From: Schmidtea polychroa
Taxonomy: Eukaryota
Assembly: GCA_044892525.1 (NCBI GenBank)
Contig: CM097885.1
Coordinates: forward strand, 434,001-498,000
Direction of reading: 5' to 3'
Length of the DNA stretch: 64,000 nt
Below, piece after piece: positions 30,178 through 47,922 of this stretch; positions within the stretch are counted from its first letter, which is position 1; each line of letters opens with the position of its first letter. A program made the translations under genes and the position numbers. The notes under the pieces are model-generated. The model was not told the origin of the DNA. It worked only from the letters and a program-made list of their open reading frames with translations, and made no database searches.

Positions 30178-32013
30178 GGGATCCGGATAAAACACCGAAA
30201 CAAAAAACTCGAAATTCAAACTTCGAAAACAAAAACACCGAAAAATATAATTTCGAAATGCAAAAACATAAAAAATAAAATATCGAAAACATAAACATCG
30301 AAAGCATTTTTATTATTTAAAAAAAAAATTGTATGTAATTGATGTAACAATTTTAACATTTGTTGACTTTTAAAACTATTAGGCCGCTTGAAGTTCTAAA
30401 TTATGGGCTAAACCTCTTAAATAATCTAAAGTGTTTCGAGTTCCATATGACTCTACTATAGACTTGATTCTTCTGGCAGTTTCGATATAAATTCTTTTTG
30501 ATGGTGGTGGATTAATTCCTGACGTTAATTGTTCCAATTTCAATCGAGTCAGGCCTTCTTCTTTCTTTAAAATTTCAAGAAAACGCCAGAAATTTGGGTT
30601 ACTTGATGCCATCAATGAACTAAAAGATCGATGCCATCCTTCAATCGAGTTATTTGTTTTAGGAAGATCATCGATTGATGCTTCGTAACAATTCCAAAGC
30701 GATATCGGAACTCTTGGTGATCTTCTTCCTGTTGCAGATCTTGTTGGTCTTCCAATCCACTGATCCTCGATATAATCGATAAGTGGACAAAGCAATTGTT
30801 CGTTTTCTCTGAAGAAATCAGAGTCTAAAAGTACATTGAAACACTCAATGACATCTTCTTCTGGCACAAAAGCTAAAGCTGCAAGTTGTCGCAAATATAA
30901 AGAAAAATCAGGATCCTGTATATCCTTATATTTGTCGCTAATTGGACTGTTTCTTTGTATTTCTCTCCATATACATTGAGAAAAATGGAAGAAACAACCA
31001 CGAATTCTTGTATCGGGGAAGCAATCTTTAATTGAATTAATAATTGCTTGTTCAAAATCCGATAACACAGATACTGGTGATAGAGCAGGCTTTATTTGCT
31101 TTAATTGGCGAAAAACTTTAGTATAAGTTTCTTGTCTTTTGTTAGGCAAAAGAGCATAAACCAAAGGTATCACTGTTTTATCGATAATACAATGTACCGT
31201 AAACATCTGAAAAAATAAACTTGGAGCATTTTTAAATGTTCCATCAACGTATAAATGCGGAGATGATACTAATGTATCAATTAATCGACTTGTGCTGAAC
31301 ATCACAATTCTATCTGCGCCATCATTTGAATCGTAGATTACAAAATCATCTCCAATTGCAGTTTTTCTTAAGTTTTCGGGTATAAATAAATCCGAAAGTG
31401 ATGTCGGCGAAGGCAATATCCCTGATGCTTGATTTCTTTGTCTTCTGATAGTTCTTTTGATCGAATCTATCTTCGGCAACTTGCTACAAACAGCTTGAGA
31501 CAATGTTGACGTTGCCGCTGCAATAATTTGAAGCGGTGTTTCGGTGGAAGTTTTTGAACTTTCTTTTATTTCAGAATAAAGCTCTTTAGCTTTAATAACG
31601 GCAACTTTTGGAACATGATTATGTTCTCCTATTTCTTTTTCCACTTGATTATCAACAGTGTGGCATCTTCCTTTGCACTTAAATGTCAAATATTCCACAC
31701 ATTTCCAATAAGTTTTTTCGTTATGTTGCCTATCTTTTTGATAAAGAAAACTATTATATAAAAGTTGATTAACACCTTTTTGACTTTTAATAAATTTAAT
31801 CTCCATTTTTATAATTGGAATCAATATTTAGCTAATTTAATAATTTAACTATGAAGAAATGAAAGGAAACGGAAACAATTTAAAGGGACTTTTTATTAAT
31901 TTTTCGATATTTTGTTTTCGATATTTTTGTTTTCGAAATTTTTTCTATTCGATATTTTATTTTCGGTGTTTTTGTTTTAGTTTTTTTAATTTTCGGTATT
32001 TTGTCCGGGATTC
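30178..32013 (-). mobile_element. Mutator-like (MULE) DNA transposon with ~125-bp imperfect TIRs built of cgaaa repeats, 9-bp TSD ccgttatat
   Basis: ccgttatat(30169-77)|GGGATCCGGATAAAACACCGAAA...TTTCGGTATTTTGTCCGGGATTC|ccgttatat(32014-22). Excision restores RT EIEIYNGVKQG. Confidence 0.93.
30379..31806 (-). CDS. FLYWCH zinc finger plus MULE (DDE) transposase, uninterrupted ORF (ATG at 31806; the track extends to 31824)
   Basis: YWKCVEY..CKGRC..EHNH; YVDGTFK; LSDFEQAIINSIK..FP..IRGCFFHFSQC; KTNNSIEGWH. Confidence 0.93.
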   Translation of the reverse strand: MEIKFIKSQKGVNQLLYNSFLYQKDRQHNEKTYWKCVEYLTFKCKGRCHTVDNQVEKEIGEHNHVPKVAVIKAKELYSEIKESSKTSTETPLQIIAAATSTLSQAVCSKLPKIDSIKRTIRRQRNQASGILPSPTSLSDLFIPENLRKTAIGDDFVIYDSNDGADRIVMFSTSRLIDTLVSSPHLYVDGTFKNAPSLFFQMFTVHCIIDKTVIPLVYALLPNKRQETYTKVFRQLKQIKPALSPVSVLSDFEQAIINSIKDCFPDTRIRGCFFHFSQCIWREIQRNSPISDKYKDIQDPDFSLYLRQLAALAFVPEEDVIECFNVLLDSDFFRENEQLLCPLIDYIEDQWIGRPTRSATGRRSPRVPISLWNCYEASIDDLPKTNNSIEGWHRSFSSLMASSNPNFWRFLEILKKEEGLTRLKLEQLTSGINPPPSKRIYIETARRIKSIVESYGTRNTLDYLRGLAHNLELQAA

Positions 32014-34497
32014 CCGTTATATATTTCTATTTCATTTGTAAGTTGCCCTTCACATTCAAAGTATGTTTTGCAATTATGATATAGGTCCTTAAACATATTA
32101 AGTGTATCATTATTAATGCCTAGTTCTGTTAGTGTTTGCCATATAAGTTGATGCGGCACACTTCCGAATGCATCAGCGAGGTCTAACCAGAATATGTTAA
32201 TGTCGCCATTATTGCGAATTGCTCTCTCTTTAATAAGTGGTTAGTATTACATATTTTGTTTTTGTGCTTTGTGCTAATATGTTTATCAATCTCGTCTTGT
32301 GTGGATCTTACTGTAAGTTTATTTATGCATGGTTTCCTAAGTGATTTATTATTGCAGTTTATGGTACCTTCCTCATTTATTGTTAAGGTATGTTCCTTAA
32401 GCTTAATGTTAATCATTTCTCTAGATAAAGGTACCGCTAAGTCTTTATGAGTTTCATTAATGTGTTCAGTGATAGTGTTCAATAAAAAGTTACATTTAAT
32501 GTTTGTGTTACGTTGTGAACATAAAACGCATTGGAAGGTGTCATATTTGTTGATTTCGGTTGTGTGTACTTCTAATCTATTTTGTTAGTTGGTCTTCGAA
32601 TTTAGTTGCACCTATCTTACCTTTAGAATTGGGGTTGTAACATATTAGGTAACCATCACCTCTTAGTTTAAAAATTGGTTCCCTTAGTGTGCGTAGAGCA
32701 AATTTATTGGGTTTTAGGACTGAGGTGTTTATTTTTTCAATTTCGTTTGATTCTAGTATTGGTTGGAGATCAGTTTTATTTATAATGGGGCTAGCATTAG
32801 TACACGTAGTGTTGATGTCATCTTTTGGGGTGGGGATTAATATGTTATTATGTGTTATTGTGGTTGTTTTTCCTAGTAGATCAAGTTTATTTACGATTTT
32901 AAAAGCTTCGAATGTTTGCGTATTCATGTATGATGGTTTAGTGTCATGGATATTAGAGTCGTTACTTGAAGTGTTCGATTGTGTGGGTGTGTTTTCAAAA
33001 AGATCTATACTCGAGTCTATTTGTGGGTGAATATTGCTCTTACTGTAGATCATAGGGCTGGGGTTTACAGAGTTCGTAAGCGGGCTATATGATATAGTTT
33101 CAGTCGTTGTTTGTGGTAGCATTTTAGTATTTATATTTCCATCAGAAAGTTCAGAGGATTCAGAGTCAGAGATTTGGATATCGTCAATGTCTGGCACCAC
33201 AGTATTCGTTGGGTGTTCAGTTACGTCGTCATTAATTATATCAGATAGTATAGGAGATTCAGAGTCAGAAGTGTTTTGATTAATTATGTTAGTTTTAGAG
33301 TTATCATTAAGGTCGAGTTCATTATTTGCATCAGGAAGTATGTCAGATTCAGAGTCAGAGGGGTTACTGCAGTCAAGGTCTACATTACGGCTATGAAGGA
33401 TATCTTTGTCAATATCAGGAGTTTCACGAATGTCAAGATTAGTAATATTAATTTCAGGGTCAGATTCATCGTTTTTATCACTGTCAGAGGGTATACCAGG
33501 TATTTGGTTGGAAAACTTATAGCAGGCAGTATCTTTATTCACGTCATCTTGATCATCAATGTCAATTAGGTTTGTAGTTAGGTCATTTGGGGCTGCAATT
33601 TTCCCTAACTGGTTCAAGGGTATTTTATTAATATGGTCATATGTCCATGGAAGATTCAGAAAAATGTGGCCTTTTGGATGTATTTATGTTGCGTTTTGGT
33701 AATATATTTTTTGAGATAGTGCTTATTTGGGTTGAGATTTGAGAGCTTAGGTTTAGTGGTCAAAGTTGTAGTTGATTTATTTTTGTAGATGAGGTGAGTG
33801 GGTATTTCTATTTAGGGGTATTTCTATTTAAGTAGTCATATTTAAACAAACTAATTATTTTTAAAAAAATGGAATCGCCATTTTGTTTAATGAAATTTAA
33901 TAAATCGTTTTTTAAATTATTTCGAAATATATTTTTTATTTCTGGTTGGTATTTTTCTTGATTAATTTTTATAATTTCATCTATCCTATCTATTAAAAAA
34001 TAATCATAATTTTCAATTTGTTTGGGGTCTAGGTCATAGATCTCTTTATTATTCAAAACATTGTTATTGTTATTTTTATTATAATTACTAATAATGATAT
34101 CTTCACTACACTTATTATAATCGCAATTCTGATCATAATTACCGTTATTTATCTTTTTCGAGGAAGGGCATATTGTTGTATATTTTTTTTCATAGTATCG
34201 AATCGGGTTAACTTTGTTTTTAATGGCTTTTTCGTCATTTAATCTTTCATTAATCGGGTTCCGAGAGGGGCATTCCGTCTCATTGTCGGTGTGGTGTTTT
34301 GGTTTACCGTAATCAGGAGTCGGTTTCTTTTTATCAGTAATATATCTGCAAATACCATTATTTATTTTCTTAAAATCATTAAATAATTGGTTATCGAATG
34401 GGGCTCTGATTTTTTCAAATCTTTCGCAGATAGTCCTGATATTCCGATCTCCATTCGAATCGTTGATCTCATAATTAGATCCAAATAAAAAGCCAGT

Positions 34498-34562
34498 TTT
34501 CTGCCCAGTGCTATGAATGTTATCTAGAAGTGATTCTTCTAAGCACTGGGAAACGGCGGGAG
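34498..34562 (+). other. 28S rRNA H68-H69-like segment in the leader of family C copy 1
   Basis: Ungapped 65-nt hand alignment, 50/65 identical, to recalled canonical LSU TTTCTGCCCAGTGCTCTGAATGT...GGGTAAACGGCGGGAG. Confidence 0.85.
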
Positions 34563-34666
34563 CATTAGTACAAAATTCAAGTTTTTTAAATTGCATAAAC
34601 ATTTTCATTGAATTCTGAGGAGGCATTCCAAACAGATCGGGACAGATTTCGCAGTTATAATAATTG

Positions 34667-35451
34667 TTAGGAGAGGCAGTTAAGGCTTCTGTCTGATTAG
34701 TTTATATGCAATTATGAGCACTAAAATTTTTCGTTTAAATCTATCCTTAATAGGATAGAGTTTATAATAAATAGGGTTTATGAAAGAATGGTCAACGTCA
34801 TCGGTTACAGAGTTTCTTTGTAAAGAAGCCTCTATGATATCATGAGAGTAGTTATGGCTTACTGAGTCTAAGGAGATGTGAGAGTTAGTTGTTTCGACGA
34901 TAGAAGTATCGTTTAATGGAGAAGGTTTGAAGGATATGGGATTTATCATAGAGTCATTATCCATATTAGAGTGTGAAAGGTGGTTAGAGTATTTTTTTGA
35001 GATGTTGGACTCATCTTTAATGGGAGTTGAAGTAATATTTGGGAGATAGAGATTATCAAGATAAGTATTTGATGAGGCACTGCTCGATAGTTGGACATCA
35101 TCGCAGTCTTCATCATCAAGATCACAGGAATTAGTTTTATTGGTAGGATGGTTTAAGTAAAAAGGAGTATTATTATCCATAGTGTCCGACGAAGCTTTAA
35201 GGACTGGAGTGATAGGAGTTGTAGCTGGACTCCTTCTCGTGGTAGTATTCCTCACTATATCTGCGTATGTTTTTGATGTAGCTTCTTTTGCATTCATTCT
35301 GTTTATTTCGTCTAAGTACCTAGGATATAGATAAATATTGGAACTGGGGCATAATTTATTCATAATCCGAAGGCTTCAATGGTTATACGTCAGCTGCCTC
35401 CTGGCTTCTCTGATAAAGTTCTCTTTTTCTCCTTGGAATTGCCACCCATTT
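34667..35451 (-). mobile_element. Short internally deleted family A-type element (5' ORF1 piece fused to a 3'UTR piece)
   Basis: ORF 34680-35363 is homologous to 8500-8890 and 39400-39600. 34667-34728 matches 3'UTR 40077-40138. Confidence 0.75.
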
Positions 35452-37345
35452 ATCAAAATTTTATTTAATAAAAGCCTGCTCCTAAGAGACAGGTTAGTCC
35501 TTTTAACGGGACGAGTTTCGGCGCAATGCCAGAAGCTTCCGCATTCATTGTTTTAAATCATCTGTCATCCAAGCCTTGTACTGGTTTAGGGATCAAGGCT
35601 GATTTCTTTTCATCGTATAGTTCAGCGTCCATTTTATTGATTTTGTTCAGGATCAGTAGTAGGTATCGGCGTTATCATTTTTTCATTGTTGTATTTATGT
35701 TATGGGCTCTAAAAAAAGGGTTAAAGATTCGGAGTAAGAAGACTCCATATTTGGTAGCGGTACAATATAATTGTAATAAGGATTGGACGGATTAGGGAAA
35801 GGAGGTTTAAAGGAATAGGTGGTTATAATAAATATTTTAACAACTAAAAAGATATTTATCAGTTAGGCGGAGCCCTTACAAGGACTCCTACATTGACCCA
35901 CTGATAATACACTTATTTGCGATCACCTTCCTCTTCCTAGCGTCTCTTGGTTTAATTTTGGCTAATATTTCGGAGATGCATTTTTTTTGCATGTTCCACA
36001 AAAGCAGGTATGCATTCAAGAGTAATTTGAGCAGTTAAAGTATTAGGATATTCGCAGTTAAAATTGAGGATTCCATCCGTAAGTGCGTTAATATTGGCCT
36101 TAAGTTCAGAGAGAATTACGGTTTTAGTCTCTTCAGGTAGATTAAGATCTGGATTTTTTAATTCAAATAATATCCTGAGGTTGGTATTGACTTCGTCTTT
36201 GATATATAGTGTTATAGAAAGGTTTAGGATACTATTGCATATTCTTTCCACGAGTTTATCAGCGTCCAATTCGCAGTGAAAATCGGAATGTGGGACGTTT
36301 ACAGCTTTCTCACTAGTCGGGTCTCCATTTTGAGTTTGTTCAGGATCGATTTTATCAGCGTCCATCTCGCAGTGAAGGTCGGAATGTGTGGGGTTTATAG
36401 ATTCTTCACTAGTCGGATTTTCATTTTGATTTTCTTCATGATCAGTATTACCTAGAACTGTTATCGGTGGTTGTGCATAATTATAGGCGAAGTTCGGAAG
36501 TTTTTTGTAATTATTGGCGTGTTTACGAGGAGCAAATCTTTCTTTAAATTTTAAAATTAGAAAAAGTCTTTGATGATATATAGGTTAGTAGGAATGTTTT
36601 TTATAATTTTATGGATATCTATAAAAAAACTTTTACTTAAGTTGTAGAGTTGACAATGGTTAGTAGGTTTGTAAAGTTTGGTATTATTAGGAAAAGAAGG
36701 TATGGGTTCGCTAGAAGGGTTAGCGCTTTGACATTTTCTGGGAGTCGGCCGAAGGCCGATGAGCTGTGATTGGATATTTCGGTTTCAGGGCTTACATTTG
36801 CTGTTTAGTGTTGGTTTAAGTAAAAAGGAGTATTATTATCCATAGTGTCCGACGAAGCTTTAAGGACTGGAGTGATAGGAGTTGTAGCTGGACTCCTTCT
36901 CCTGGTAGTATTCCTCACTATATCTGCGTATGTTTTTGATGTAGCTTCTTTTGCATTCATTCTGTTTATTTCGTCTAAGTACCTAATGATATAGATAAAT
37001 ATTGGAACTGGGGCATAATTTATTCATAATCCGAAGGCTTCAATGGTTATACGTCAGCTGCCTCCTGGCTTCTCTGATAAAATTCTCTTTTTCTCCTTGG
37101 AATTGCCGCCTATTTCTGCGCAGTGCTAGGAATCTTATATTGGAGTGATTCTCCGAAGCACTGGTAAACGGCGGGAGTTATATTGTAACGATTGTTTTTG
37201 GAATCTTGCATGTAATATTTTTACGGAAAAGAGGTGCTAGGAAGTGATTCTCCTAAGCGCTGGGAAACGGCGGGAGTAATCTGGTAATAAATTGAGTTTC
37301 TGAATAACATTAAAGAAATATTTTCACGGTTAAAAAGGGGACCTC
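35452..37345 (-). mobile_element. Chimeric non-autonomous retroelement: double 28S-like leader, A-type 5' piece, B-type ORF1 piece, 3'UTR and structured 3' end; no RT
   Basis: 28S-like motifs at 37112-37178 and 37234-37279. 36810-37110 matches 35150-35450. cggagtaagaagactc is shared with 40151. The 3' end is shared with 43601-43690. Confidence 0.7.
37112..37279 (+). other. Tandem pair of 28S-like segments (full 37112-37178, partial 37234-37279)
   Basis: atttctgcgcagtgct...aagcactggtaaacggcgggagt and aagcgctgggaaacggcgggagtaa. Confidence 0.8.
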
Positions 37346-37349
37346 CATC

Positions 37350-39762
37350 AGGCATTGGATCATCCTCCTGCAGCAGAATTATCTTTTTCATTTTCCTTAA
37401 CTTTTAATTTTTCTATTTCTTTAAGCTTTTTATAGAAAACTTTATTATCCTTTTCTATATTTGAAAATTTTCCATTATTAAAAGCGAAAATATCATTAAT
37501 ACCGCAATTTTGATTATTAATTACCGTTATTTTAGCTTTCGGATAATTTTGAAATAATAAATATGGCATTTTCATGCTTTTCCTTGTCATCGGGCGAGAT
37601 TTTTTTCCAATCGGCCAGTGTGATTCCATCAAGTCCTGGAGCAGTGTTTTGGAGTTGTGAGAAGATTTATTATTTAGGATCTTCGTTATCTCCTCTTTAG
37701 GTTTTGTTTTATATTTGAATCTTTTAATACAAAGCAGTTCATTTTTAGTCCAGGTTTTTTTATGGACAATGTCTGCTGGTTTTTTAATTTTCTATTTTTT
37801 CAATTTCATTAAGGGCTGTTTCACGGTCCATATTGTCGTTATTTAAATTAGTTATTAAACCTTTAATAAGTGGGAGGTATTTTTTAATATTATCGTCAGG
37901 TATTTTGTAGGTAAAATAGTTTTCCTCAACAGTTCTGATATTTTTTTGCATAATAGTAATTTTAGGAATGGTTAGTTTAGTATTCTTTATCAGGCATTGG
38001 ATGAGGTGGCACACAAAAAAGGCAACTGGGATATTCATATTTTGTGAGTGTAATTGCGAGTGGTGAAACGATTTTTTGCAGATCAAGAATGGTATTCAGT
38101 ATGCTATTAGCGAGAGATAAGTGTTTGGAGTGGCTAGCGTCAAGTAAAGGATCTATTATAACAGCTAATTGTCTCCGCTTATCAAGATAAAAGAAAAACC
38201 AGTTGTCTTTGCCATTTGACATTGGCATAATAATTTCGTTCCACTCTGCGAAGTCTTTGAAGGGGAAGGAGGAGAAGAAGGTTTTGTAATTATGCTGGAT
38301 TAGAAAGTTATCAACATAAGGGTCAACAAAGATGGTAGATTTTTTCATGGCGAAAGAGTAAACGAATGCCTTTATTGTGTGCTGGGACCATCAAGCTGAT
38401 TCCTCATACACGTTATTTGTGAATAAGCAATCATTTGGTATTTCTCTACTATAGTTAAAATCAAAACCATTTAGACATTCTTCATCTGATGAAGTTTGTT
38501 TCCCTTCCTTTGTGTTTCAAGGTTATCTGCAATCACCTCCTGGGTGTTTAATACATTATTCATAATATTATAGTCATAATAATATTGTTAGTATTTGGTG
38601 GTATTGGGTGGCGTTGAGCTATATGATTGATAATGCCATCTATTGGGATCCAGCTCCTACATGCACAGTATATATCGGCATTTTTATCAATAATTCTATT
38701 TCTATGTTTTTTTGACATGTGCTCCCATACACATGCCAATGGAGTGTCCCAATTCCACGTCGTAAAGCATTTTTTGTAGTTCTTATTGTGGCTATTACAT
38801 GTGAGGTGATTATTTTTGTCGATTTTAATAAATATCATTTTGAGGGTATCTTTATCATTTTGTATTTCATGCACATATTGTTCGACATGTCTGTAAATGT
38901 CTTTGTGCGTAACCGGATATATTACATAGCGTTCGTCATCACCTTTGCATTGGCCGCAGTCTATGATGGAGTGTTCTGTGATAATTATGTTGTGTCTTTC
39001 AAGTGCGTGCTTATCCAATTTTTCCCTATTGTAAATGGAAATCGCTCCACAAAAAGGTGTGCGTAAGTGGTGTCTGCATCTACATTTCCCTCTGGAGTTG
39101 AAGTAGTAGAGGTTAGGATCTTGCATGTATAGTGATTTCAGACTAGGTGGTATTAATGTTTGGGTTGGTTTTGGGATTTCGCTTGTCTCCATGGATATTT
39201 TTATTCCAACAAGGGATTTAGGTTTATTACAACTACAACATTTAGAGTTGGTAGCATTATTTTTATTTTTAGCGTTATCTGCTCCATTATCAAATGCATT
39301 AATTACGGGTAAGTTGTCTATCAGAGCGATGGCGTTTTTGGGATCATTAGAGAATAAGGATGAGTTGGACTGAAGGTTTTCGTTAAGGATAGATTTTTCG
39401 TTTAAAGGGGAGAGTTTATAAGAAATAGGGTTTATGAAAGAATGCTCAACGTCATCGGTTACAGAGTTTCTTTGTATAGAAGCCTCTATGATATCATGAG
39501 AGTAGTTATGGCTTACTGAGTCTATGGAGATGTGAGAGTTAGTTGTTTCGACGATAGAAGTATCGTTTAATGGAGAAGGTTTGAAGGATATGGGATTTTT
39601 TTCCATTCATTCTGTTTATCTGGTCGAGTTGCCTAAAATAAAGGTAAATATTGGAGCTATTAAAGATAATTTTATCATAGTCTGGAGGCTTCAATAGTAC
39701 AGCGTTTTTTGCCTCCTGGCTTTTGTGATAAACCTCTCTTCTTCTCCATTGAGAACCCACCG
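37350..39762 (-). mobile_element. Family A copy 2 (ORF1 zinc fingers, conserved TGA, Ulp1-like domain, truncated at APGLDG)
   Basis: ORFs 38560-39606, 37977-38348 and 37784-38086 are homologous to 6300-8664. Confidence 0.85.
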
Positions 39763-39774
39763 AAAAAAGAAAAA

Positions 39775-42700
39775 ATCAAATTTTATTTTATGCAATTAAC
39801 GGGGCACATGGCCAAGAAGGGGAGATGTAATCTGCAGCTTTTAGTTCAATAGACTGGATGTTAGAGTGTAATACTCCTACATCAAAACGTGGTTTTTCCT
39901 GAAAACTTCAGTCCGGTTTGGAGTCTGGGATCCATTCTGAAGCTCCTGGCATTGGCTCATTCACATTTACAGGTAATCATCATTGAGCAGAGTAGGGATA
40001 ATCATGGCTAATCACAGACTTGATCAACCATGGCTCGTATAGATGCATCTGGCATTCATTCATTCAGGTTAGTTTATTAGGAGAGGCAGTTAAGGCTTCT
40101 GTCTGATTAGTTTATATGCAATTATGAACACTAAAAATTAATTTAATAGATCGGAGTAAGAAGACTCTATTTGTGATTTTTGTAGCGATCAAATATTATA
40201 AATTATATTATATTAAGGATTGAAAGGATGGGTCCAAGGAAGAGGAGGTTTTTAAAGAATAGGTGGTCCGGTGAGTATATGGTTATTGTTGCTATCCCAG
40301 GATCCTAGAGTACCGATTACTAGGGCTGAGATAGTAGTTTTAGTTTTATAGTATTTTTCAATATCTATGGCCAGGTACGTGTATTTAATATAGTTATTCT
40401 TAACTGCATTTTTAAAATTTTCTTTTTGTTCATACGGGACTTTTATATACAGTAGATGAATGTTTTTATTTTATTAGAAGATATGGTTTAAGAGTTGAAT
40501 TTACTCCATGAGGTGAAATTTCGATATCTAGGTGAAAGTTGAAATAAGAGAGACATTCGCAGACCGCTTCGAGGACACGGGAGTGTTTATTTCTGCGCGC
40601 ATTAATTTTCGCAGGGCAATGGTTGAATATGTGGGCCTGTGTTTCGGGGTCTGAGTTGCATTGCCTACAGAGGATAGATTTTCTACATTTAAGTCGATGA
40701 GGTGTGAAATTTCAGCAGGTTGTTGCGAGCCCTAACAAGGAAGAAGTATTGGGCGTCGTTAAGTATATCAGATTTGAGGAGGAAGTCAGCAATGCTGCTA
40801 TCAGTGATGGATTTGGCAATATAACCCTGATATGTTAGGATCGTCCATTTTTCTGCGTGTATAAAGCCTATGATGCAGTGCAGTTCAGAGGAGATGTCCT
40901 TCATGTTATGTTCATTAAAGTAATTAATTTCAAGTTGGTATTGGTCTTCCATAAGCGCGATTTTTGCGTGTATGCCATATTTCCTACGAAGCAGATCGAA
41001 AGATTTTTTGAATTTCGAAAAGATAGAATGAGTTGGAAAGGCTTTAGAGATGTTACCATTAATCCAGGACATTACCTTGGCCACGTGCTAAAGCAAGTTC
41101 TGAGAGGATAAGATTACGAAAGGCTTTGTATGATATATTCGACTATTGCAGCGGTAAGTCCGAGTCCGCCCATTTTTATAGAGGCGTATAGGAAGTTATT
41201 GTTAAATTGCAAGAGTTTATCCCCCAAAGAGGTTTTTATCATTTTTCTTATCTTATTGTCAAAACCTTTTTGGGGGACACAGTCTTTTATGATGGTATCT
41301 TTAAGAGTATCTAGTATATTATGGAGAATTTCACAATTACGGAAGAGAAAGATCAATCGGGAATGTATGAATATTTGAAGGCATTAATCTTCTGAGATGG
41401 GTGAAGATGTGAGTTTAGGATTTTTTCGGTATCGTTAATAGCGAATTCAAGTCTTTCATCAATATTGTGTCTTTTCTTATAAGCAAAGTCTACTCCTAGA
41501 TATCATCTACTTTTGGAATGGTCTCATTATATAGTTTAATTGGTTGGTGGTTATTACTGTCATTTAAGTGGAAATAACCAGATTTCGAGGGTTTAAATTT
41601 TAGATATATTTTGAATATTTTGAATATTTTGAATAACCAGATTTCGAGGGTTTAAATTTTAGATTGGCTAGTGAGGCAAGACGGATAGTTTCAAGGAGAG
41701 CAGAGGTGATTGATAGGTAAGAGTCTGAGATCAATACGATGTCATCCGCGTATGCTAGGATACCAATATTCATATCACCAAATATGAAGGGGTGAGAGAT
41801 TAGGATATTTTTATTAATATAGTCGATAGAGAGGCAGAAAAGAGTCATGGAGAGTGGACATCCTTGTTTCACTCCTTTTAGGATGGGAATTGAGGGCGAT
41901 TTTTCTCCTTCGCAGTCGAAGATTGTTTATCAGCCCAATGGTGTTAGGGTGTAACCCTATTGTAGAAAGAGTATGCCAGATGAGGTCGTGTGGTAGAGAG
42001 CCGAAGGCATCAGTGATATCCAGCCAGACAATATGAAGGTCGGATTTGTTTCGTATGGAGGCATCCTTAATGAGTTGAAGGATAAGATTATGTTCAGCGC
42101 ATCCATCGGGGGTGCCGATTGCTTTCTGATTATGAAGTTATTAAGAAGTGAAGTATTCATGATGGAGATCGGTCTCCATGAGCTGGCCTCGTGGCTTATC
42201 TCATTCTTACCGGCTTTGAGGATGAGTTTTGTCCTGAAGGTTTTCCAAGTAGATGGGCAGAGGGAGTTCCTTTGGATGTTATTACATATAGAGAGAAGAA
42301 GTTCGAAATCTGGTGATATCTTTTTCCAATTGGCAAGTGTGATAAGATCTAAGCCTGGAGCGGTATTGTCAAGATTGGAGAAAATGTATTTGATCTCATC
42401 AGTATCAAATGGAGTAGGGGAGTAATTTTCTGGGAAGGAGCAAAGGAGGTTAATAGAAAGCGGATTTGAGGTGACTAATTCCCCTGCAAACAGTTTGAGA
42501 ATATTGGTCATAGTGGGTTTTTGAAAATTACATTCGTTTTTCAAGATCTTAGATATCTCCTCCTTTGGGTCAAATTTGTATCTGTTCCTTTTAATAACTA
42601 ATAATTCGTTGTCTAGTTTTTTTCTCTTATGAATGATGTCAGCCGGTTTTTTATTATTGTATTTTAAGGCATTAATATTAACACGAGAAAAATTTTTTCG

Positions 42701-43600
42701 AGAAAGACTGTGGTAAAAAGAATGATATTTAAACAAAGAAAAATCTTTGTATAAAATCGATAATTTATTCAGGTTAATAAAGTTAGAAATATTTATAATG
42801 ATAATATTAACTAACTCACTAGAAAATCCATTAAAAGGGACTTCTGTAGAGTTTTTAAAATCCATAATTATTTTTTTAATAATATATTTAATTTTATTTT
42901 TAATAAATTTATCGTATTTATTATTATTTTGGTTATTGTAATAATTATTTGTGTTTTCATTTAAATTATCATTATCAAAAGTATATTTGCCAGTAGATTT
43001 ATTATTTAAATTATAATTACTTAATTCACAATTATCGTTATAAGTAGATTTATAATTGTTATTAATCAGGTCAGAGTTTTTATCATTTAGGTTATAATTA
43101 CCATAACTTAATTCGCAGTTTTTAATATTTAAATTATAATTACTGTTATTTAATTTACAATTAGAATTATTTAATTTATAATCATTATAGAAATTTTGAT
43201 CATTTAAATTAAAAATCATTAAATTATTATTTAGGATTATTATTTATTTTTATTATTTAGGATGTGAATCCTACGAGCAGGGCAAAAGGCTTTCCACGAG
43301 GTAGTAAATAAGTCATTGGATGTTGCGTCTGGAGTCTTTGCTCCGCTGTAAGAAGGTCTGGCAGGATGGCATATGAATCTCATTGGCATTTGGTGTCATA
43401 AGTCTTGTCGGTTTAGGTTTAGAAAAGCTTCTTCTTTGTCTGTCTGAAGGAGCAGTAGCAGATTTATGGAGTCCGGTTTCATTAGTTCTAGAAGGGAGAT
43501 TAGAGTGTGTTAAATATAGGTTTTTCTCATGGTTATCTCCCGGATTGGAGCTTCTTCCATCTATAATCGTATCATTGATCTTGGAATCATCGGCCGATTT
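39775..43600 (-). mobile_element. Family B copy 2 (large internal deletion; RT, CCHC, RLE remnants and 3'UTR)
   Basis: APGLDLIT, SWRPISI, KQGCPLS, AYADD, GGLGL, CRQCNSDPETQAHIFNHC, IVIGTLGSW. Ends aataaaatttgat at ~39775. Confidence 0.85.
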
Positions 43601-43739
43601 ATCAAAATTTTATTTAAGTAAAGCCTGCCTCCGAAGAGACAGGTTGGTCCTTTTTACGGGACGAGTTTCGGCCAGCAGCCAAAGCTAAACAACCGAATTT
43701 TTTTATAGTTTCCCGTCCAAGGCTGATTTCCTCCTGATT

Positions 43740-44108
43740 TCGTAGGTTTCTTTTTCGTAGGTTTCTTTTTCATAGGTTTTTTTTTCGTAATTATTAGGTT
43801 TATTAGGCATTTCTTTTTTGTAGGTTTCTTTTTCATAGGTTTCTTATTCGTAGGTTTCTTATTCGTAGGTTTCTTATTCGTAGGTTGCTTATTCTTAGGT
43901 TTCTTTATCGTAGGTTTCTCTATCGTAGGTTTCTTTATCGTAGGTTTCTTATTCGTAAGTTTCTTTCTTAGGTAGTTTCTTTTTCGTAATTATTAGGTTT
44001 ATTAGGCATTTCTTTTTTGTAGGTTTCTTTTTCATAGGTTTCTTATTCGTAGGTTTCTTATTTGTAGGTTTCTTATTTGTAGGTTTCTTTATCGTAGGTT
44101 TTTTTTTC
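43740..44108. repeat. 15-bp minisatellite (ttcgtaggtttcttN), possibly one arm of a MULE-type non-autonomous element inserted in the 3'UTR
   Basis: About 20 tandem units with a duplicated internal block. No partner TIR was seen. Confidence 0.75.
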
Positions 44109-44643
44109 CATACAATAAAAGTTCTCAACACAAACACAGTAAGACAAGCCAATAAAAAGTGGTAATAAGTAAAATATCATCACAAACTAATAAAAAGTGG
44201 TAAAAAAGTAAAATGCCATCACGATACTCATAAATCAAAACAGGCCATCACAAGGCTAAAAAAGTTCGTACGATAAATATAAAAAAGATCACAGCAGACG
44301 CCAACATACGATCATAATAAACAAGAGAAGATCACAATCTCCAAAAAAGAGGGCCTCAATACGGCTCATAGAAGCAAATTAAGTCATTACAAGGCTATCA
44401 GAGGGAAAAGGTCCAATGAACGCTATCATCAAATTTTTATCATTATGTGATATGATTCCAAAATATTAAATGAAAACCAAGTTATTATAGTATAGATATA
44501 TTATAGTACATTATAGTATAGATAAAGCAGTCAATGTATAAATATATTCTAATTTACATATTAAATATTAGGGCAGTATTAAAACCTTATGGTGTAATAT
44601 GGTACAGTATAAATACATTACAGAATAAGTATAGTAAATAATA

Positions 44644-45588
44644 TTAGTTATCAATTAATGTGTTTAAAATGTGGTCCATATAGATATTGTAGCTCGCTGT
44701 GATCGCTGTTATAATGCATTTCCTAGCTAATATGTTAATTTCCCTATCAGTCAATCCTATATCTCTTAAGGGTTTATCATTGTTGATATCCCAGGTTCCT
44801 AAAGTTCCTACAACAAGTGCATATAGTGTAGTTTTATTTGCAGTGCCAGTTTCAATAGCCAAATTTCTATATTTCTCAAAATTGTTATCTCTAGCGTTAT
44901 TAAAATTTTCTATTGTGTCATACGGTACCTTAATGTCAAGTAGGTGTATTTTTTTGTTTCTATTTGAGGTTATAATTAAGTCAGGTCTTAGTGTAGTTAT
45001 TGTTCCTGGTGGTGCTCTTTCTGTGTCGACTTTAAAGTTTTTGGAAGTTAGATATTTATGCGTTATTTCTAATACTCTATTGTGCTTATTTCTCCTAGCA
45101 TTTTGTGTTTTGGTGCAGTGGTTGAAAATATGTGCCTGCGTTTCCCAGTCTTTGCTGCATAATCTGCAGAGTATGTTTTGGTTCTCTTTGTGCCTATTTA
45201 TTGTATAATTAAGACTGAGCATGTTATTGCGTGCTTTAATTATGAAGTAATATTGATTGTCGGTAAGAACAGTTGATTTTATTGGGTATGCAGATAAGTT
45301 ATTGTTTCCTATTGTTTTTGATATGTGTCCCTGGTTGATCATGTCATACCATTTTTCAGCATACCATCTACTTGTTATATTATGTAATGTTGAGGATGTG
45401 TCTTCTATGTTATTCTTATCTATATAATTAATCTCATTGTTGTATTTTATTTCTAGGTTAAAAAAGCCTTTAATAAGTATTATTTTGCATTGAATATTGA
45501 ATTTTTCGCGGATTCTCTTATATGATTCCCTACAAGATTTACCACTTATGTCCCCCCTTACAGTCTGCATTAAGCCAGTCGAGGGCAT
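44644..45588 (-). pseudogene. CCHC zinc knuckle plus restriction-like (PD..D-x-K) endonuclease domain, frameshifted from RT
   Basis: CRLCSKDWETQAHIFNHC, RNKHNRV, LRPDLII, LLDIKVPYD, KYRNL, VVGTLGTW. Confidence 0.92.
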
Positions 45589-47812
45589 TATTAATGTTGA
45601 TTTCCTTATTAAATGACCTGATTTTGACTATCTCTATAAGTTCACTTAATAGAAAATTTTTCATCTTAATGTCGTCAGAGTTAAATATTCTAATAAATTG
45701 AGTGATACTTTGGATTAGGTATTCATCAATGGATGGTGTGATACCTAATCCTCCTAAAGAGCAGTTCGCATAAATAAAGCTATTATTAAGATTTTGGTGT
45801 ATGTCCTTTAGTTCATTTTTAATTATTCGTTTAATTTTTTGGTCATAGCCTAGTTGTTTATCTCTATTTTGTACTATTTTATTCCTATTGCAGTCTAGTA
45901 TCATATGATTGATTGTGCATGTTCGCAAAGGAAAAATAAATCGGGAGTGTATAAAAGTTTTATATGCATGTAGTTTCTGTGCTGGATGTAGGTCAGAGGT
46001 AAAGATCATATTTGCGTCTTCTAGTGCCTTAGATAAAATGTCGTCAATGCTGTGTTTTCCTTTTTCACCAAAACCTACGCCTAGGTATCTATAAATTTTA
46101 TCGCTATCTATAATCGGGATCTTTTCATCGTATATTGTTATTGGGATATCAGAATGATTTTTTTGTAGTTGGAAATATCCGCATTGGTTTGGTCTGAATT
46201 TTAGCTTAGATCTATCGGTTAATTTGATTATATGTTCTAGTATCATCTTAATGTTATCCCTGGAGTCTGATATTAGAACAATATCATCAGCATACGCCAA
46301 TATGCTGACATTATATTCACTAATTATTAAAGGGAATTTATTTAATATATCCTTAAGTATGAAATCTATTGCCAGACAAAAAAGTGTCATGGACATTGGG
46401 CATCCTTGCTTAACTCCGTTATGTATTTCTATTTCGCTAGTGAGCTGCCCTTCACAGTCATATTGTGTTTTACAGTTGTTATATAGGTCTTTAAATACGT
46501 TTAATGTGTTGTTGTTAATACCTAGATCTATCAATGTTTGCCAAATTAGTTTATGTGGGATGCTTCCAAAGGCGTCCGCTAAGTCAAGCCATATGATGTT
46601 AATATCTTTATTATTGCGAATTGCTCTTTCTTTTACTAGTGTGAGGGTTATATTATGTTCAGAACAACCATCAGGTATACCTATTGCTTTTTGGTTGATA
46701 CTGATGAGGCCCCTTAATTTTACCCATTCAAGAAGTCTATTGTTTATTATAGCTGAAAAGATTCTATAGGATGTATCTAAGATAGCAAGAGGTCTCCATG
46801 AAGATATATCATAGCTTAATTTCTCTTTATGTGGTTTAATTATTAGTTTGGTTTTAAAAAATTTCCAATTATCTGGAGTTTTTATGTTACGGATTAAGTT
46901 ATTGAAAAGGGCGCATAAGAATGTGAGGTCAGGGTCATTTATTCGCAAGTCTCTGTAGGTTATTTTGTCGGTGCCTGGTGCTGAATTTAGGTTTAATTTC
47001 TTAATATTATTATTAATTTCATTGATTGTTATTATCTTATTAGTTAGTTGTTCTATGTCATTGTTATTTTCAATAAGTGGTAAATCTTCAATAATAATTA
47101 AATTTTTTTTTAAATTGTTAGTAATTTTTTTGCTAGCTGGTGGTTGTACTTGGGTAACATTATTAAATATTTTATTAATAGTTATTTTAGGCTTTTCAAT
47201 ATAGTTATTTCTTATTTCATATACAAGATCAGCTTTTTTAATGTTTTTTCTTATATTAATAATAAAATTAGGTTTAGGGTATTTGTTTGGAAAAAGAGCA
47301 TTATGTATCTTAGATATCTCATTTAATCCTAGTGTTGGGGTAATATCATTGTTATCTATTTGTATGGTGAGATTAGTGAGGAAATTTCTATATTTATTAA
47401 TGTTGTCATCAGGTAGTCTGTCAAATAATATTTTACTAATAATTTCTCTTAATTGTGATCTTATTTGGTTTATCGTTGGTATGGTAAAAATTTCTCTATT
47501 GTTATTTAGACAGAGTGCAAAATGGCAAATATAGAAACTGGACTCTTGTATGCTGCAAGTTGGGTATTGTAGTTCAGTTATTGTTATAGATGTTGGAGAT
47601 ATTATATTTTGTAAGTTTAGGATTGTACTTAATATGCTATCGGCAATTAATTTGTGTTTAAGAGTGCTGTGTCCACACGTCGGATCTATCAGAGTAGCTA
47701 TTTTTTTTATTTTGTTGAGGTAAAAAAGTGACCATGTGCTATCCTCAATTTTAATGGGAAAGAAAATTTCGTTCCATTCAGGGTATTGGTGGAAAGGGAA
47801 TGTTTCAAACAA
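45539..47812 (-). CDS. Ulp1-like domain plus complete non-LTR reverse transcriptase (757 aa open)
   Basis: APGTDKIT, SWRPLAI, GCSEHN, WLDLADAFGSIPH, GVKQGCPMS, AYADD, YRYLG, GGLG. Confidence 0.93.
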   Translation of the reverse strand: MFETFPFHQYPEWNEIFFPIKIEDSTWSLFYLNKIKKIATLIDPTCGHSTLKHKLIADSILSTILNLQNIISPTSITITELQYPTCSIQESSFYICHFALCLNNNREIFTIPTINQIRSQLREIISKILFDRLPDDNINKYRNFLTNLTIQIDNNDITPTLGLNEISKIHNALFPNKYPKPNFIINIRKNIKKADLVYEIRNNYIEKPKITINKIFNNVTQVQPPASKKITNNLKKNLIIIEDLPLIENNNDIEQLTNKIITINEINNNIKKLNLNSAPGTDKITYRDLRINDPDLTFLCALFNNLIRNIKTPDNWKFFKTKLIIKPHKEKLSYDISSWRPLAILDTSYRIFSAIINNRLLEWVKLRGLISINQKAIGIPDGCSEHNITLTLVKERAIRNNKDINIIWLDLADAFGSIPHKLIWQTLIDLGINNNTLNVFKDLYNNCKTQYDCEGQLTSEIEIHNGVKQGCPMSMTLFCLAIDFILKDILNKFPLIISEYNVSILAYADDIVLISDSRDNIKMILEHIIKLTDRSKLKFRPNQCGYFQLQKNHSDIPITIYDEKIPIIDSDKIYRYLGVGFGEKGKHSIDDILSKALEDANMIFTSDLHPAQKLHAYKTFIHSRFIFPLRTCTINHMILDCNRNKIVQNRDKQLGYDQKIKRIIKNELKDIHQNLNNSFIYANCSLGGLGITPSIDEYLIQSITQFIRIFNSDDIKMKNFLLSELIEIVKIRSFNKEININNALDWLNADCKGGHKW

Positions 47813-47922
47813 GGTTTTAAATTTTTTTTAATAAGAGCAATGCCTATGAAGCTATTTATTATAATGGTTGTATATTTTTTGACAAAAACAAGTAGGTACA
47901 GTTTAATTGTATGTTGATTTAG

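What the first reader, a model, noticed from the sequence alone, without database searches (positions are those of the whole stretch)
35440..43620. Self-targeting: elements end exactly where the 28S-like motif of a previous element began (ATTT^CTGCCCAG), building a head-to-tail array
Seen on the + strand as paired empty and filled sites. Family B: cggccgattt|ctgcccagtg (27085) vs cggccgattt|atcaaaattttatttaa (43600). A-type body: gccgcctattt|ctgcgcagtg (37115) vs gccacccattt|atcaaaattttatttaa (35451). A third junction at ~39762-39775 has the same AATAAAATTTGAT terminus (element sense) abutting an A-type start, with ~12 extra nt. So two independent junctions replace the 28S-like motif at the same nucleotide, about 82 nt upstream of where R2 would cut. 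Inference: the RLE endonuclease recognises the rDNA-like motif carried by relatives. Several families would then share one safe-harbour array outside rDNA, each newcomer inheriting the old leader. This would explain about 9 co-oriented units over 44 kb.
Basis: partly seen in the sequence, partly recalled or inferred. Interest (0 to 1): 0.85.

Follow-up and report, generated by a model that had tools for sequence, protein, structure and literature searches.

The report
Retrotransposons that insert into relatives' leaders
Jumping genes of a flatworm-type genome that are known to aim at one spot of the 28S ribosomal RNA gene carry a worn copy of that spot at their own front end, so relatives keep landing there and pile up head to tail in a megabase-sized array.

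Summary
All elements are on the minus strand. They are non-LTR retrotransposons with a restriction-like endonuclease, of the NeSL/R5-LIN kind.

Upstream of their bodies sits a ~75-nt segment, 67-71% identical to this genome's own 28S and antisense to the element. Two kinds of 3' end (…TTTTGAT+AAAT, and …TTTGA+variable T-run) abut relatives' body starts at or within 5 nt of that segment's edge, at many independent loci.

Three loci outside the window show the predicted structure directly: old leader, then a 5'-truncated newcomer, then the old body, with 2-9 nt lost. One of them holds three stacked leader remnants. A T-tailed 3' end sits at the homologous place in a 28S sequence within the terminal rDNA array.

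Targeting of this antisense 28S site by planarian LIN24_SM/LIN26_SM is already published (Kojima and Jurka 2015). I found no description of the portable target in the leader, or of its use by several families.

Caveats:
- More than half of the sampled 3' ends have unrelated flanks.
- The 39776 junction is one event copied at least 14 times.
- The window's A-type "empty/filled" pair flanks a single insert.
- The AAAT is ambiguous.
- No RNA or biochemical data.

A new variant of a known kind; interest moderate.

The parts
25287..27085 (-). B-type element, 5' part of the body. In element sense it starts AAATCGGCCGTC at 27085. It is cut off near 24.8-25.2 kb by an inverted segmental duplication.
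   Evidence: ORFs 25287-25769 and 25766-27184. The first 200 nt are 97-100% identical at 8 other places on C1, C2 and C3.
27086..27328 (+). B-type leader. It holds the complete 28S-derived motif m1 (27086-27152) and a truncated older motif m2 (27194-27262, lacking CTGCCCAG). This is the 'empty' target site at 27085/27086.
   Evidence: The same leader is found next to the same body at 7 of 8 fetched B-type places.
27329..27679 (-). Fragment of an A-type body (about nt 55-405), lying between the C2 3' end and the B leader.
   Evidence: 98.6% identical to 35047-35397. C1:1287 kb keeps this A piece up to its first base, where the leader motif follows (L073), with no C2-type element at this point.
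27680..34500 (-). C2 element: ORF1 with zinc-finger-like motifs, RT and RLE. It is interrupted at 30176-32013 by a FLYWCH/MULE DNA transposon, and its 3' end differs from that of C1.
   Evidence: tblastn with P0001-P0003, Pfam MULE and FLYWCH, sequence.
34501..34575 (+). 28S-derived leader motif directly upstream (element sense) of the C2 body.
   Evidence: 60/85 identical to the real 28S.
34576..35451 (-). A-type body (starts AAATGGGTGGCAATTCC at 35451). This is the 'filled' site.
35452..36811 (-). Non-autonomous C-type element ('C-short', 1360 nt). Over its last 71 nt (35452-35522) it is 91% like C1's 3' end. It ends ...AAATAAAATTTTGAT.
   Evidence: Related copies at other loci (L007, L023, L024). 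The 5' end of the family lies near 36804-36811.
36812..37115 (-). Second copy of A-type body nt 1-304, upstream of C-short. Either a 304-nt target duplication or a product of recombination; unresolved.
   Evidence: 98.0% identical to 35149-35451. The same junction occurs again at C1:784.6 kb and in the 138-kb duplicate.
37116..37340 (+). A-type leader: complete motif m1 (37116-37183) and truncated older motif m2 (37216-37285).
   Evidence: 14 of 19 A-type body starts examined carry this motif.
37341..39762 (-). A'-type element, 5' portion only (ORF1 38560-39606, start of ORF2 37787-38279). Its body starts CGGTGGGTTCTC at 39762.
39763..39775 (-). T-rich tail (TTTTTTCTTTTTT) of the element upstream.
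   Evidence: Tail and flank are identical in all 13 fetched C1 array places, which with the window makes 14 identical copies.
39776..43600 (-). B/D-type element (RT 41117-42649, RLE 40273-41009, several frame breaks). Its 3' end is ...AAAATAAAATTTGA+T-run. Its body starts AAATCGGCCGATG at 43600, which is a 'filled' site.
43601..49929 (-). C1 element, full length for its family: ORF1 47923-49407, RT 45539-47812, CCHC+RLE 44644-45588 (one frame break between RT and RLE). The 3' UTR carries short tandem repeats at 43738-44112. The 3' end is ...TTAAATAAAATTTTGAT.
   Evidence: The 5' end is fixed by 8 dispersed copies whose match stops at query position 447-450, which is window 49926-49929.

Best explanation
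The window is part of a co-oriented array of at least 1 Mb near one end of contig C1. The array consists of non-LTR retrotransposons with a C-terminal restriction-like endonuclease, of the NeSL clade (planarian R5/LIN lineage).

This lineage targets one site of the 28S gene in antisense orientation. The site reads ...CACTGGGCAG^AAATC^ACATTG in element sense, 82 nt from the R2 site. Full-length copies of several families (A, B, C2) carry at their 5' end a ~125-240-nt leader. The leader contains a diverged, ~75-nt copy of the 28S segment that lies upstream of that site, followed by AAAT and then the body. Every such copy therefore recreates a landing site.

Relatives insert there by target-primed reverse transcription. 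These are autonomous C- and B/D-type elements and a 1.4-kb non-autonomous C-type. The strand that reads like 28S is nicked at GATTT^CTGCCC or up to 5 nt to its left. The element's 3' end joins the resident's body, and the 5' junction removes 2-9 nt of the leader. The newcomer thereby sits behind the resident's leader and separates it from the resident's body. Repeated hits on one leader stack elements head to tail and leave truncated leader remnants. Segmental duplication, deletion and unequal exchange then amplify and scramble the array.

**Shown here**
- Positions and independence of the junctions.
- Leader-insert-body structures.
- A D-type insertion at the homologous site of 28S sequence inside the rDNA array.
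- The leader lies next to the body at dispersed places as well as in the array.

**Inferred**
- The endonuclease or zinc fingers read the motif.
- The exact nick position.
- The leader arose by capture of upstream 28S flank.
- Newcomers profit from the captured leader.
For: **Protein and family**
- RT: Pfam RVT_1, E 5.9e-29.
- RT and CCHC/RLE match solved R2 proteins, E 7e-44 and 6e-12.
- 5 of the 7 best database relatives carry a Ulp1 protease domain, as NeSL-type elements do.

**The motif is 28S-derived**
-.

**Census of body starts**
- A-type, 19 examined: 14 preceded by the motif, 2 by a C-type end, 3 by a D-type end.
- B-type, 10 examined: 8 preceded by the motif, 1 by a C-type end, 1 by a D-type end.
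- All junctions lie within 5 nt of the same point, except L085, which lacks the first ~11 nt of the body.

**C-type 3' ends**
- 12 of 31 junctions abut bodies of seven different kinds on C1, C2, C3 and C4.
- Two C subfamilies each hit the same B subtype separately: L003 versus L004, and L005 versus L006.

**Direct structures**
- L030: ...GCACTGGGC | 733-nt C-type | AAATCGGCCG-body.
- L005: ...CATAGC | 147-nt C-type | AAACCGGCTG-body.
- L021: three leader remnants each ending TAGCAC, then C#1, then a 320-nt C#2, then an A' body.
- The window's own m2 motifs end at ...TAGCA (B) and ...TAGCAC (A), the point where L021's remnants end.

**28S in the rDNA array**
- GCAATGT + A19 + a D-type 3' end at C3:144554492, between intact rDNA units.
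- Downstream sequence differs between 28S (CACATTG) and the bodies (CGGCCG, GGGTGG, CGGTGG, an arbitrary truncated element in L021). Only the upstream motif is shared.

**The leader lies with the body outside the array**
- B body plus at least 87-110 nt of leader are 97-100% identical at 5 dispersed places on three contigs.

**Published**
- LIN24_SM and LIN26_SM join by a variable T-run to antisense 28S at ...AAATC^AC(A/G)TTG (PMC4640811: section 10, and parts 1-2 of 3 of S6 Fig).
Against: **Specificity is loose**
- 17 of 31 C-type junctions have flanks unlike any body held here, and 2 more are unclear.
- 11 of 30 fetched D-type junctions have unrelated flanks.
- The C-type sample is biased towards B-type flanks, because the query carried 40 nt of B flank.

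**The window itself gives no clean case**
- C1's upstream flank is an A-body-like piece, not a B leader.
- C-short is preceded by 304 nt of repeated A body.
- The A' copy lacks its 3' part.

**Some junctions are copies**
- The 39776 junction and a second composite junction (6 copies on C21, C2, C3) were copied as blocks.

**Other gaps**
- No C-type end was found in true 28S with exact flank patterns.
- AAAT or a one-base variant follows 31 of 31 C-type ends (AAAT itself in 23), so the exact nick cannot be read from the C-type junctions.
- No RNA evidence that the leader is transcribed.
- No intact copy was identified in the window, and there is no biochemistry.
Confidence: 0.75

Rival explanations
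1. The motif is not part of any element. It is the worn upstream half of old 28S targets, and the array is a decayed, amplified rDNA-derived array. This would be like the Drosophila R1 array: a few double insertions into one rDNA unit, followed by unequal exchange.
For: - 32 of 38 exact motif copies sit in one array, all in one orientation.
- The 39776 junction occurs in 14 identical copies.
- There is a 138-kb duplicate, and ~10-kb periodic copies.
- The R1 precedent of 0.5-1.3 Mb (10.1101/158386, passages read).
Against: - B-type leader plus body are 97-100% identical at 5 dispersed places on three contigs.
- L005 (C2) and L030 (C4) carry leader and body far from the array.
- Only ~75 nt resemble 28S, at 67-71% identity, and no other rRNA sequence is in the window.
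- The junctions involve at least seven body types and two tail types.
Confidence: 0.12
2. The head-to-tail junctions are made in one retrotransposition event. The reverse transcriptase reaches the processed 5' end of one RNA (at AAAT) and jumps onto the 3' end of another element's RNA, so no endonuclease targets the leader.
For: - The downstream partner always starts at the same nucleotide, as an RNA 5' end would.
- In the window the elements upstream of the junctions at 43600 and 39775 are complete at their 5' ends.
- Extra nucleotides occur at junctions.
- End-to-end template jumping of R2 reverse transcriptase is known (recalled, not read here).
Against: - In L005 and L030 the upstream partner is 5'-truncated and is directly preceded by the resident's leader, which is an insertion footprint.
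- L021 shows serial hits at one leader.
- The same position is used in 28S sequence of the rDNA array, where no element RNA 5' end exists.
Confidence: 0.08
3. The junction coincidences reflect microhomology, not protein recognition. The C-type RNA ends in AAAU and simply anneals at breaks that expose ATTT, and the start of a body happens to offer this.
For: AAAT or a one-base variant follows 31 of 31 C-type ends, whatever the flank.
Against: - ATTT is extremely common in a 30% G+C genome, yet 12 of 31 sampled ends sit at one particular ATTT.
- D-type elements, with T-run tails and no AAAT, use the same point within 5 nt.
Confidence: 0.05

Closest known systems
LIN24_SM and LIN26_SM of Schmidtea mediterranea (R5/LIN lineage, NeSL clade; Kojima and Jurka 2015, PMC4640811, section 10 and S6 Fig)
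   Same: - RLE-bearing non-LTR elements of a planarian.
- 3' end ...AAAATAAAATTT.. followed by a T-run of variable length.
- Joined to antisense 28S at ...GGGCAGAAATC^ACATTG, the position found here in 28S of the rDNA array (L129) and in the leaders.
- LIN26_SM also shows insertions in other transposons and in unrelated DNA.
   Different: - The text I read (section 10; parts 1-2 of 3 of S6 Fig, which show 3' boundaries only for these two families) says nothing of a 28S-derived leader carried by the elements, of insertion into relatives, or of arrays.
- The last 58 nt printed for LIN26_SM share only the AAAATAAAATTT box with the window's elements, so these are other families of the lineage.
- The C-type end (GAT+AAAT, no T-run) is not shown there.
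Tandem R1 array of Drosophila melanogaster (Kidd and Glover 1980; Roiha 1981; McGurk and Barbash, 10.1101/158386, passages read)
   Same: - An rDNA-specific non-LTR element forms a 0.5-1.3 Mb head-to-tail array outside the functional rDNA.
- A short rDNA piece lies between the units.
- The array began by repeated insertion at one site and grew by unequal exchange.
   Different: - There the 33-nt spacer is an identical target duplication of true rDNA, and one family is involved.
- Here the 28S piece is ~75 nt, only 67-71% like 28S, antisense, and found with the element at dispersed sites.
- Here it is hit by several autonomous and non-autonomous families, with small deletions rather than a fixed duplication.
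R2 elements (solved R2 proteins 9nl2, 9nl3, 9dou, 8gh6) and this genome's own R2 copies
   Same: - RT followed by a CCHC motif and a PD..D/ExK-type endonuclease.
- Targeting of 28S.
- Small target deletions.
   Different: - R2 inserts in the sense orientation at CAGG^TAGCC. This genome has such poly(A)-tailed copies in its rDNA, with no DNA or six-frame protein similarity to the window's elements at E 1e-3 apart from one 25-nt 28S-flank match.
- The elements here are antisense, 82 nt away, have a separate ORF1, and carry other tails.
R2 lineages with 28S-derived sequence inside the element (fish R2 3' UTRs, R2Hm-B; Kojima et al. 2016, PMC5035012, abstract and passages read)
   Same: A site-specific element carries a copy of part of its own target.
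   Different: There the copy is at the 3' end, in sense, and is thought to shift the apparent junction. It is not reported there as a landing site for other elements.
R5 of Girardia tigrina (Burke, Singh and Eickbush 2003; title seen in reference lists only, content recalled)
   Same: A planarian RLE element inserted in 28S genes. It is grouped with the LIN families at 96% bootstrap in PMC4640811 section 10.
   Different: The paper is not held, so I could compare neither its site and orientation nor any leader.
Elements that target other mobile elements or themselves (Tx1L in Tx1D of Xenopus; GilM/GilT tandem arrays of Giardia; Cnl1 of Cryptococcus; all recalled, not read here)
   Same: Site-specific non-LTR elements whose target lies in another or the same element, giving nested or tandem arrays, often near chromosome ends.
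   Different: As far as I recall, none of them uses a target derived from an rRNA gene that the element carries in its own 5' leader.

Membership tests
Non-LTR retrotransposons with restriction-like endonuclease (R2/NeSL/R4/HERO/CRE group) | Reverse transcriptase domain of non-LTR type | tested here: met
   Pfam RVT_1 E 5.9e-29 for window 45539-47812 and 8.8e-16 for 28989-30203. Solved R2 proteins E 7.2e-44.
Non-LTR retrotransposons with restriction-like endonuclease (R2/NeSL/R4/HERO/CRE group) | CCHC motif and PD..D/ExK nuclease downstream of RT, and no AP endonuclease | tested here: met
   P0002 aligns to the C-terminal part of R2 proteins, residues 111-291, E 6.4e-12. CRLC..H..C and RPDLI..LLDIK are visible. 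No AP-endonuclease (PF03372) hit in the 15 ORFs scanned.
Non-LTR retrotransposons with restriction-like endonuclease (R2/NeSL/R4/HERO/CRE group) | N-terminal zinc fingers for DNA binding | tested here: inconclusive
   C..C...H...H-like spacings can be seen in ORF1 (P0003), but Pfam gave no hit.
NeSL clade, planarian R5/LIN lineage | RT groups with NeSL/Utopia/LIN families in a phylogeny | tested here: inconclusive
   No tree was built and no Repbase sequences were at hand. 5 of the 7 best relatives of P0001 (33-37% identity) carry Ulp1 protease PF02902, as NeSL-type elements do. No protease domain was found in the window's copies.
NeSL clade, planarian R5/LIN lineage | Insertion in antisense 28S at ...GGGCAGAAATC^ACATTG, the LIN24/26_SM site | tested here: met
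   For the T-tailed (D) type: L129 at C3:144554492, compared with S6 Fig. For the C type, no insertion in true 28S was found.
NeSL clade, planarian R5/LIN lineage | 3' tail of T residues of variable length | tested here: met
   D type: T-runs of 7-27 at 11 dispersed copies. The C type has GAT+AAAT instead.
R2 proper | Sense insertion at the canonical 28S site (..AGG^TAGCC) | tested here: not met
   The site used lies 82 nt upstream in 28S coordinates and on the other strand. True R2 copies occupy the canonical site in this genome.
R1-type tandem array made by double insertion | Units separated by an exact target-site duplication of true rDNA | tested here: not met
   The inter-unit 28S piece is 67-71% identical to 28S. 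The clean cases show deletions of 2-9 nt, not duplications. The piece also occurs with the element at dispersed sites.

The most novel reading that the evidence does not exclude
The 28S-derived leader is a portable landing pad and also the element's start region. Relatives compete for it: each newcomer, including gene-less hitch-hikers, cuts the resident off from its leader and takes it over. This 'leader theft' would have let one branch (the C type, never seen in true 28S here) leave the ribosomal genes altogether. It would then live only on its relatives and build a private, self-renewing safe harbour near chromosome ends.
Probability: 0.3. Interest if true: 0.7.

Novelty: new variant of a known kind. 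Interest (0 to 1): 0.5.

Why it matters
Site-specific retrotransposons are thought to survive by hiding in multicopy genes such as rDNA. Here the hiding place has been copied into the element itself. The family therefore makes new target sites every time it moves, and other families, including non-autonomous ones, exploit them.

That gives a concrete, sequence-level route from rDNA specificity to element-on-element parasitism, and on to megabase arrays outside rDNA.

It also defines a short (~75 nt) DNA segment that appears sufficient to attract insertion whatever lies downstream. This is of interest for the current effort to use R2-like proteins for targeted gene insertion, because recognition and cleavage requirements could be read from natural variants: true 28S versus at least three diverged leader types.

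Tried and rejected
**RNA evidence**
- The look-up of sequencing runs: no RNA holder listed.
There is therefore no read evidence of any kind.

**Access to the genome**
I could not read the 5' flanks of the full-length C-type inserts at L003, L008, L015 and L016, the second 28S hit at C3:143922708, or the hit at C4:66234992.

**Searches that gave nothing useful**
- Rfam scan of the window: nothing.
- Search for target duplications within L001-L030: mostly uninformative, because the loci hold only 1.6 kb upstream.
- L019 and L024, where a 5' end is visible, show no obvious short duplication.

**Secondary structure of the motif**
- 85% of cells pair, but only 2 pairs change on both sides, and 118 of 500 shuffles do as well.
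- Too weak to claim a conserved RNA fold.

**Read-through of the TGA ending C1 ORF1**
- It does not continue into the RT frame.

**Ideas dropped**
- That the elements are R2 relatives inserted in sense: the orientation and site are wrong.
- That the T-run is a poly(A) tail of a + strand element: the constant end and the ORFs are on the - strand.
- A general rule of long (300-700 nt) target duplications: L005 and L030 show small deletions instead.

**Literature**
- The R5 paper is not held.


Full report
**Setting**

The window is G000:C1:434001-498000 of a 781-Mb, AT-rich genome with four very large contigs. All retroelement reading frames in the window lie on the minus strand.

The best-preserved element, C1 (43601-49929), has three parts:
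- An ORF1 with zinc-finger-like motifs.
- A reverse transcriptase (Pfam RVT_1, E 5.9e-29; solved R2 proteins, E 7e-44).
- A CCHC plus PD..D/ExK nuclease (R2 proteins, E 6e-12).

Five of the seven best database relatives carry a Ulp1 protease domain, as NeSL-type elements do.

**The observation**

Read on the + strand:
- ...CGGCCGATTT is followed at 27086 by CTGCCCAGTGCT, and at 43601 by ATCAAAATTTTATTTAA.
- ...ATTT is followed at 37116 by CTGCGCAGTGCT, and at 35452 by ATCAAAATTTTATTTAA.
- At 39763-39775 a 13-nt T-rich run separates ...AAAATAAAATTTGA from an A-like body.

The motif is not chance (6 matches against 0.71 expected). Its 22-nt core occurs five times, always on the + strand.

The genome's own 28S reads GATTT^CTGCCCAGTGCCATGAATGTCAATGTGAAGAAATTCAAACAAGCGCTGGTTAACGGCGGGAGTAAC. 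The leader copies are 67-71% identical to it over 83 nt.

It is therefore antisense to them.

**Is the targeting real, or one event copied?**

I sampled the genome in three ways.

*(a) C-type 3' ends.* The best 30 of the 40 scored places (of 128 candidates) became loci and gave 31 junctions.
- 12 abut the first bases of a relative's body: L001, L002, L003, L004, L005, L006, L012, L016, the second junction of L021, L026, L028 and L030.
- These cover A, A', four B subtypes and a C2-type body, on C1, C2, C3 and C4.
- L001 is the window's own junction and L002 its copy in a 138-kb segmental duplicate.
- L003/L004 and L005/L006 are hits by two different C subfamilies (…catgaaat… versus …tattaaat…) on the same B subtypes, so they are separate events.
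- 17 flanks resemble nothing held here, and 2 are unclear (L015, and the first junction of L021).
- The sample leans towards B-type flanks, because my query carried 40 nt of B flank.

*(b) Body starts.*
- For the A type I fetched 17 of the 40 listed places. I left out the window itself, its duplicate, matches that stop short of the body start, and 15 weak 74-76% matches.
- With the two window copies, 14 of 19 A-type starts are preceded by the motif, 2 by a C-type end (window 35451; L088 at C1:78.7 Mb) and 3 by a T-tailed end (L075; L087 and L089).
- For the B type I fetched 8 of the 63 listed places: the matches of at least 97% identity, apart from the window's own place.
- With the two window copies, 8 of 10 B-type starts have the motif, 1 a C-type end (window 43600) and 1 a T-tailed end (L096, T20).

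*(c) T-tailed (D-type) 3' ends.* I fetched 30 of the 40 listed places.
- 13 carry exactly the window's junction, tail included. That junction is therefore one event copied with the array: 14 copies counting the window.
- 6 carry a second identical composite junction, on C21, C3 and C2.
- 11 are dispersed, with T-runs of 7-27 and unrelated flanks (two share a flank).

Even so, at least ten separate C-type events and five D-type events at one point of a handful of short sequences in 781 Mb cannot be chance.

**Direct footprints**

Three loci outside the window show what the model predicts.
- L030 (C4:2.77 Mb): ...CCCAGTGCTTAGCAGAACTACTGCTATATTACATTCATAGCACTGGGC | 733 nt of a 5'-truncated C-type element ending TTTTGAT | AAATCGGCCG... 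B-type body.
- L005 (C2:131.8 Mb): leader ending ...CATTCATAGC | 147 nt of C-type 3' end | AAACCGGCTG... body.
- L021 (C1:1.49 Mb): three leader remnants in a row, each ending at TAGCAC. Then come a C-type element, a 320-nt C-type remnant and an A' body.

In L021 the second hit landed between the leader and an arbitrary truncated sequence. What lies downstream therefore seems not to matter.

The target loses 2-9 nt, and no long duplication is made.

The window's own second motifs (27194-27262 and 37216-37285) end at ...TAGCA and ...TAGCAC, where L021's remnants end. They are best read as scars of earlier insertions of leader-bearing elements.

**True 28S**

- 40 of 40 scored 28S places are intact across the site, but that list favours intact copies.
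- Two interrupted units hold ordinary poly(A)-tailed, 5'-truncated R2 copies at the canonical site, in sense. They have no DNA or six-frame protein similarity to the window's elements at E 1e-3, apart from one 25-nt match of 28S flank to a leader motif.
- Exact-flank patterns found no insertion at GATTT^CTGCCC. They gave only a one-base length variant and a 24-nt 28S fragment ending at that point.
- Five bases to the left, a pattern found two places on C3. The one I could read, inside the terminal rDNA array, is GCAATGT + A19 + TCAAATTTTATTTTAATAAATTCC.... This is a D-type 3' end, of the subfamily seen at L075.

The T-tailed type thus uses the same position in 28S sequence of the rDNA array and in relatives' leaders. 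The only sequence those targets share is the motif on the upstream (element-sense) side.

**What is already known**

- Kojima and Jurka (2015, PMC4640811) state that the planarian families LIN9_SM, LIN24_SM and LIN26_SM target 28S genes and belong with R5 in the NeSL clade (section 10).
- Their S6 Fig (parts 1-2 of 3 read) prints LIN24_SM and LIN26_SM 3' ends joined through T-runs of varying length to antisense 28S at ...AAATC^AC(A/G)TTG. It also shows LIN26_SM copies in other transposons and in unrelated DNA.
- The site, the orientation, the T-tail and the loose specificity are therefore published.
- Only three held papers name these families. In what I read of two of them nothing is said of a 28S-derived leader, of insertion into relatives, or of arrays. 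The third (PMC7650587) I saw only in the listing.
- The nearest analogue for the array is the Drosophila R1 array: 0.5-1.3 Mb, with a 33-nt rDNA duplication between units (10.1101/158386, passages).
- Element-borne copies of 28S are known in R2 3' UTRs (PMC5035012, abstract and passages).

**Mechanism proposed**

Steps 1-4 are supported by junction anatomy. Steps 5-6 are inference.

1. A full-length RNA includes the leader.
   - B leader plus body occur together, 97-100% identical, at five dispersed places.
   - RNA evidence is lacking.
2. Each copy therefore offers ...GCACTGGGCAG|AAAT|body.
3. The strand reading like 28S is nicked at or up to 5 nt left of GATTT^CTGCCC.
   - C-type RNA ends in AAAU, which can pair with the ATTT primer.
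   - This explains why AAAT or a one-base variant follows 31 of 31 C-type ends (AAAT itself in 23), and why the exact nick cannot be read from them.
   - D-type junctions replace (G)ATTT by an A-run.
4. The 5' junction trims the leader by 2-9 nt.
5. The zinc fingers or the nuclease read the motif.
6. The newcomer gains the resident's leader and the resident is cut off from it.

**The array**

- A-type leaders, D-type ends and 32 of 38 exact motif copies lie in C1:0.33-1.49 Mb. With two exceptions near 1.37 Mb they are all in one orientation.
- Much of the array is duplication: the 138-kb copy, ~10-kb periodic copies and the 14-fold junction.
- The window is a mosaic, and simple insertion cannot fully explain it:
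  - C-short is preceded by a repeated 304 nt of A body. The same junction is also found at C1:784.6 kb.
  - C1's 5' flank is an A-body-like piece without a leader.
  - The A' copy lacks its 3' part.
  - C2 carries a MULE transposon.
- None of the autonomous copies in the window (C1, C2, the B/D-type element) has uninterrupted reading frames.

**Verdict**

The underlying 28S specificity is known biology. Specificity is partial, and duplication contributes as much as insertion to the 44-kb run. The portable, 28S-derived landing site shared by several families is a new variant of a known kind.

Noticed in passing
window 30176-32013 (ORF 30379-31824, - strand): A FLYWCH zinc finger plus MULE transposase gene sits inside the reverse transcriptase of the C2 element. 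This is a DNA transposon nested in the retrotransposon (Pfam E 1e-17 and 6.8e-15; gap in C1/C2 homology).
   Followed up: partly
loci L112-L116, L121-L126; L129: B/D-type elements end in a run of T, in element sense, of very variable length (7-27). This is the opposite of a poly(A) tail. The same is printed for LIN24_SM/LIN26_SM in S6 Fig of PMC4640811. How such a tail is made is open: RNA uridylation, or untemplated A addition to the primer.
   Followed up: partly
G000:C265 and G000:C425 (L065-L072): Ordinary 5'-truncated, poly(A)-tailed R2 copies (about 0.63 and 1.58 kb) sit in sense at the canonical site of 28S genes, with 2-nt and about 30-nt target deletions. R2 and the antisense LIN-type elements therefore share the rDNA of this genome.
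   Followed up: partly
window 1-5823, 12071-17883 and 19944-24786: A ~5.8-kb block is present twice in direct orientation (99.8%) and once inverted (98%). It cuts off the A-type copy at 5823 and the B-type copy near 25 kb. The block contains AT-rich internal repeats.
   Followed up: no
G000:C3:690-842 kb: Dozens of ~120-140-nt pieces about 76-79% like the first 170 nt of the B-type body are spaced at ~120 nt and ~3-8 kb. This looks like a satellite or higher-order repeat derived from the front of a B-type element.
   Followed up: no
G000:C2:189.24-189.33 Mb (of 189.69), C3:0.32 Mb, C21, C1:0.33-1.49 Mb: The arrays and composite junctions lie near contig ends. In each, the elements' 3' ends point towards the nearer end: + strand matches at low coordinates, - strand matches at high coordinates. 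The rDNA array also lies at the very end of C3.
   Followed up: no
L098 = G000:C4:60740155-60740754: An isolated ~24-nt fragment of the 28S left flank (...AACGGCTTTGACGCAATGTGATTT) ends exactly at the target point and is followed by unrelated sequence. It may be a relic of an insertion into 28S-derived DNA.
   Followed up: partly
window 27111-27125, 34526-34540, 37142-37154 (alignment A2 columns 31-45): The inner part of the leader motif forms a small hairpin whose stem differs between families but stays paired: AGCAG/CTGCT, AGAAG/CTTCT, GGAG/CTCC. With 8 sequences the support is weak (2 pairs change on both sides).
   Followed up: partly
window 45539-45588 and 47923-47925: In C1 the RT and nuclease frames overlap by 50 nt in different frames, while in C2 the same region is one continuous frame. 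C1 ORF1 ends in TGA, but reading through it does not lead into the RT frame.
   Followed up: partly
window 43738-44112: The 3' UTR of C1 holds ~25 copies of a 15-16-nt tandem repeat (…TTTCGTAGGTTTCTTT…), seen as a ladder of self-matches.
   Followed up: no
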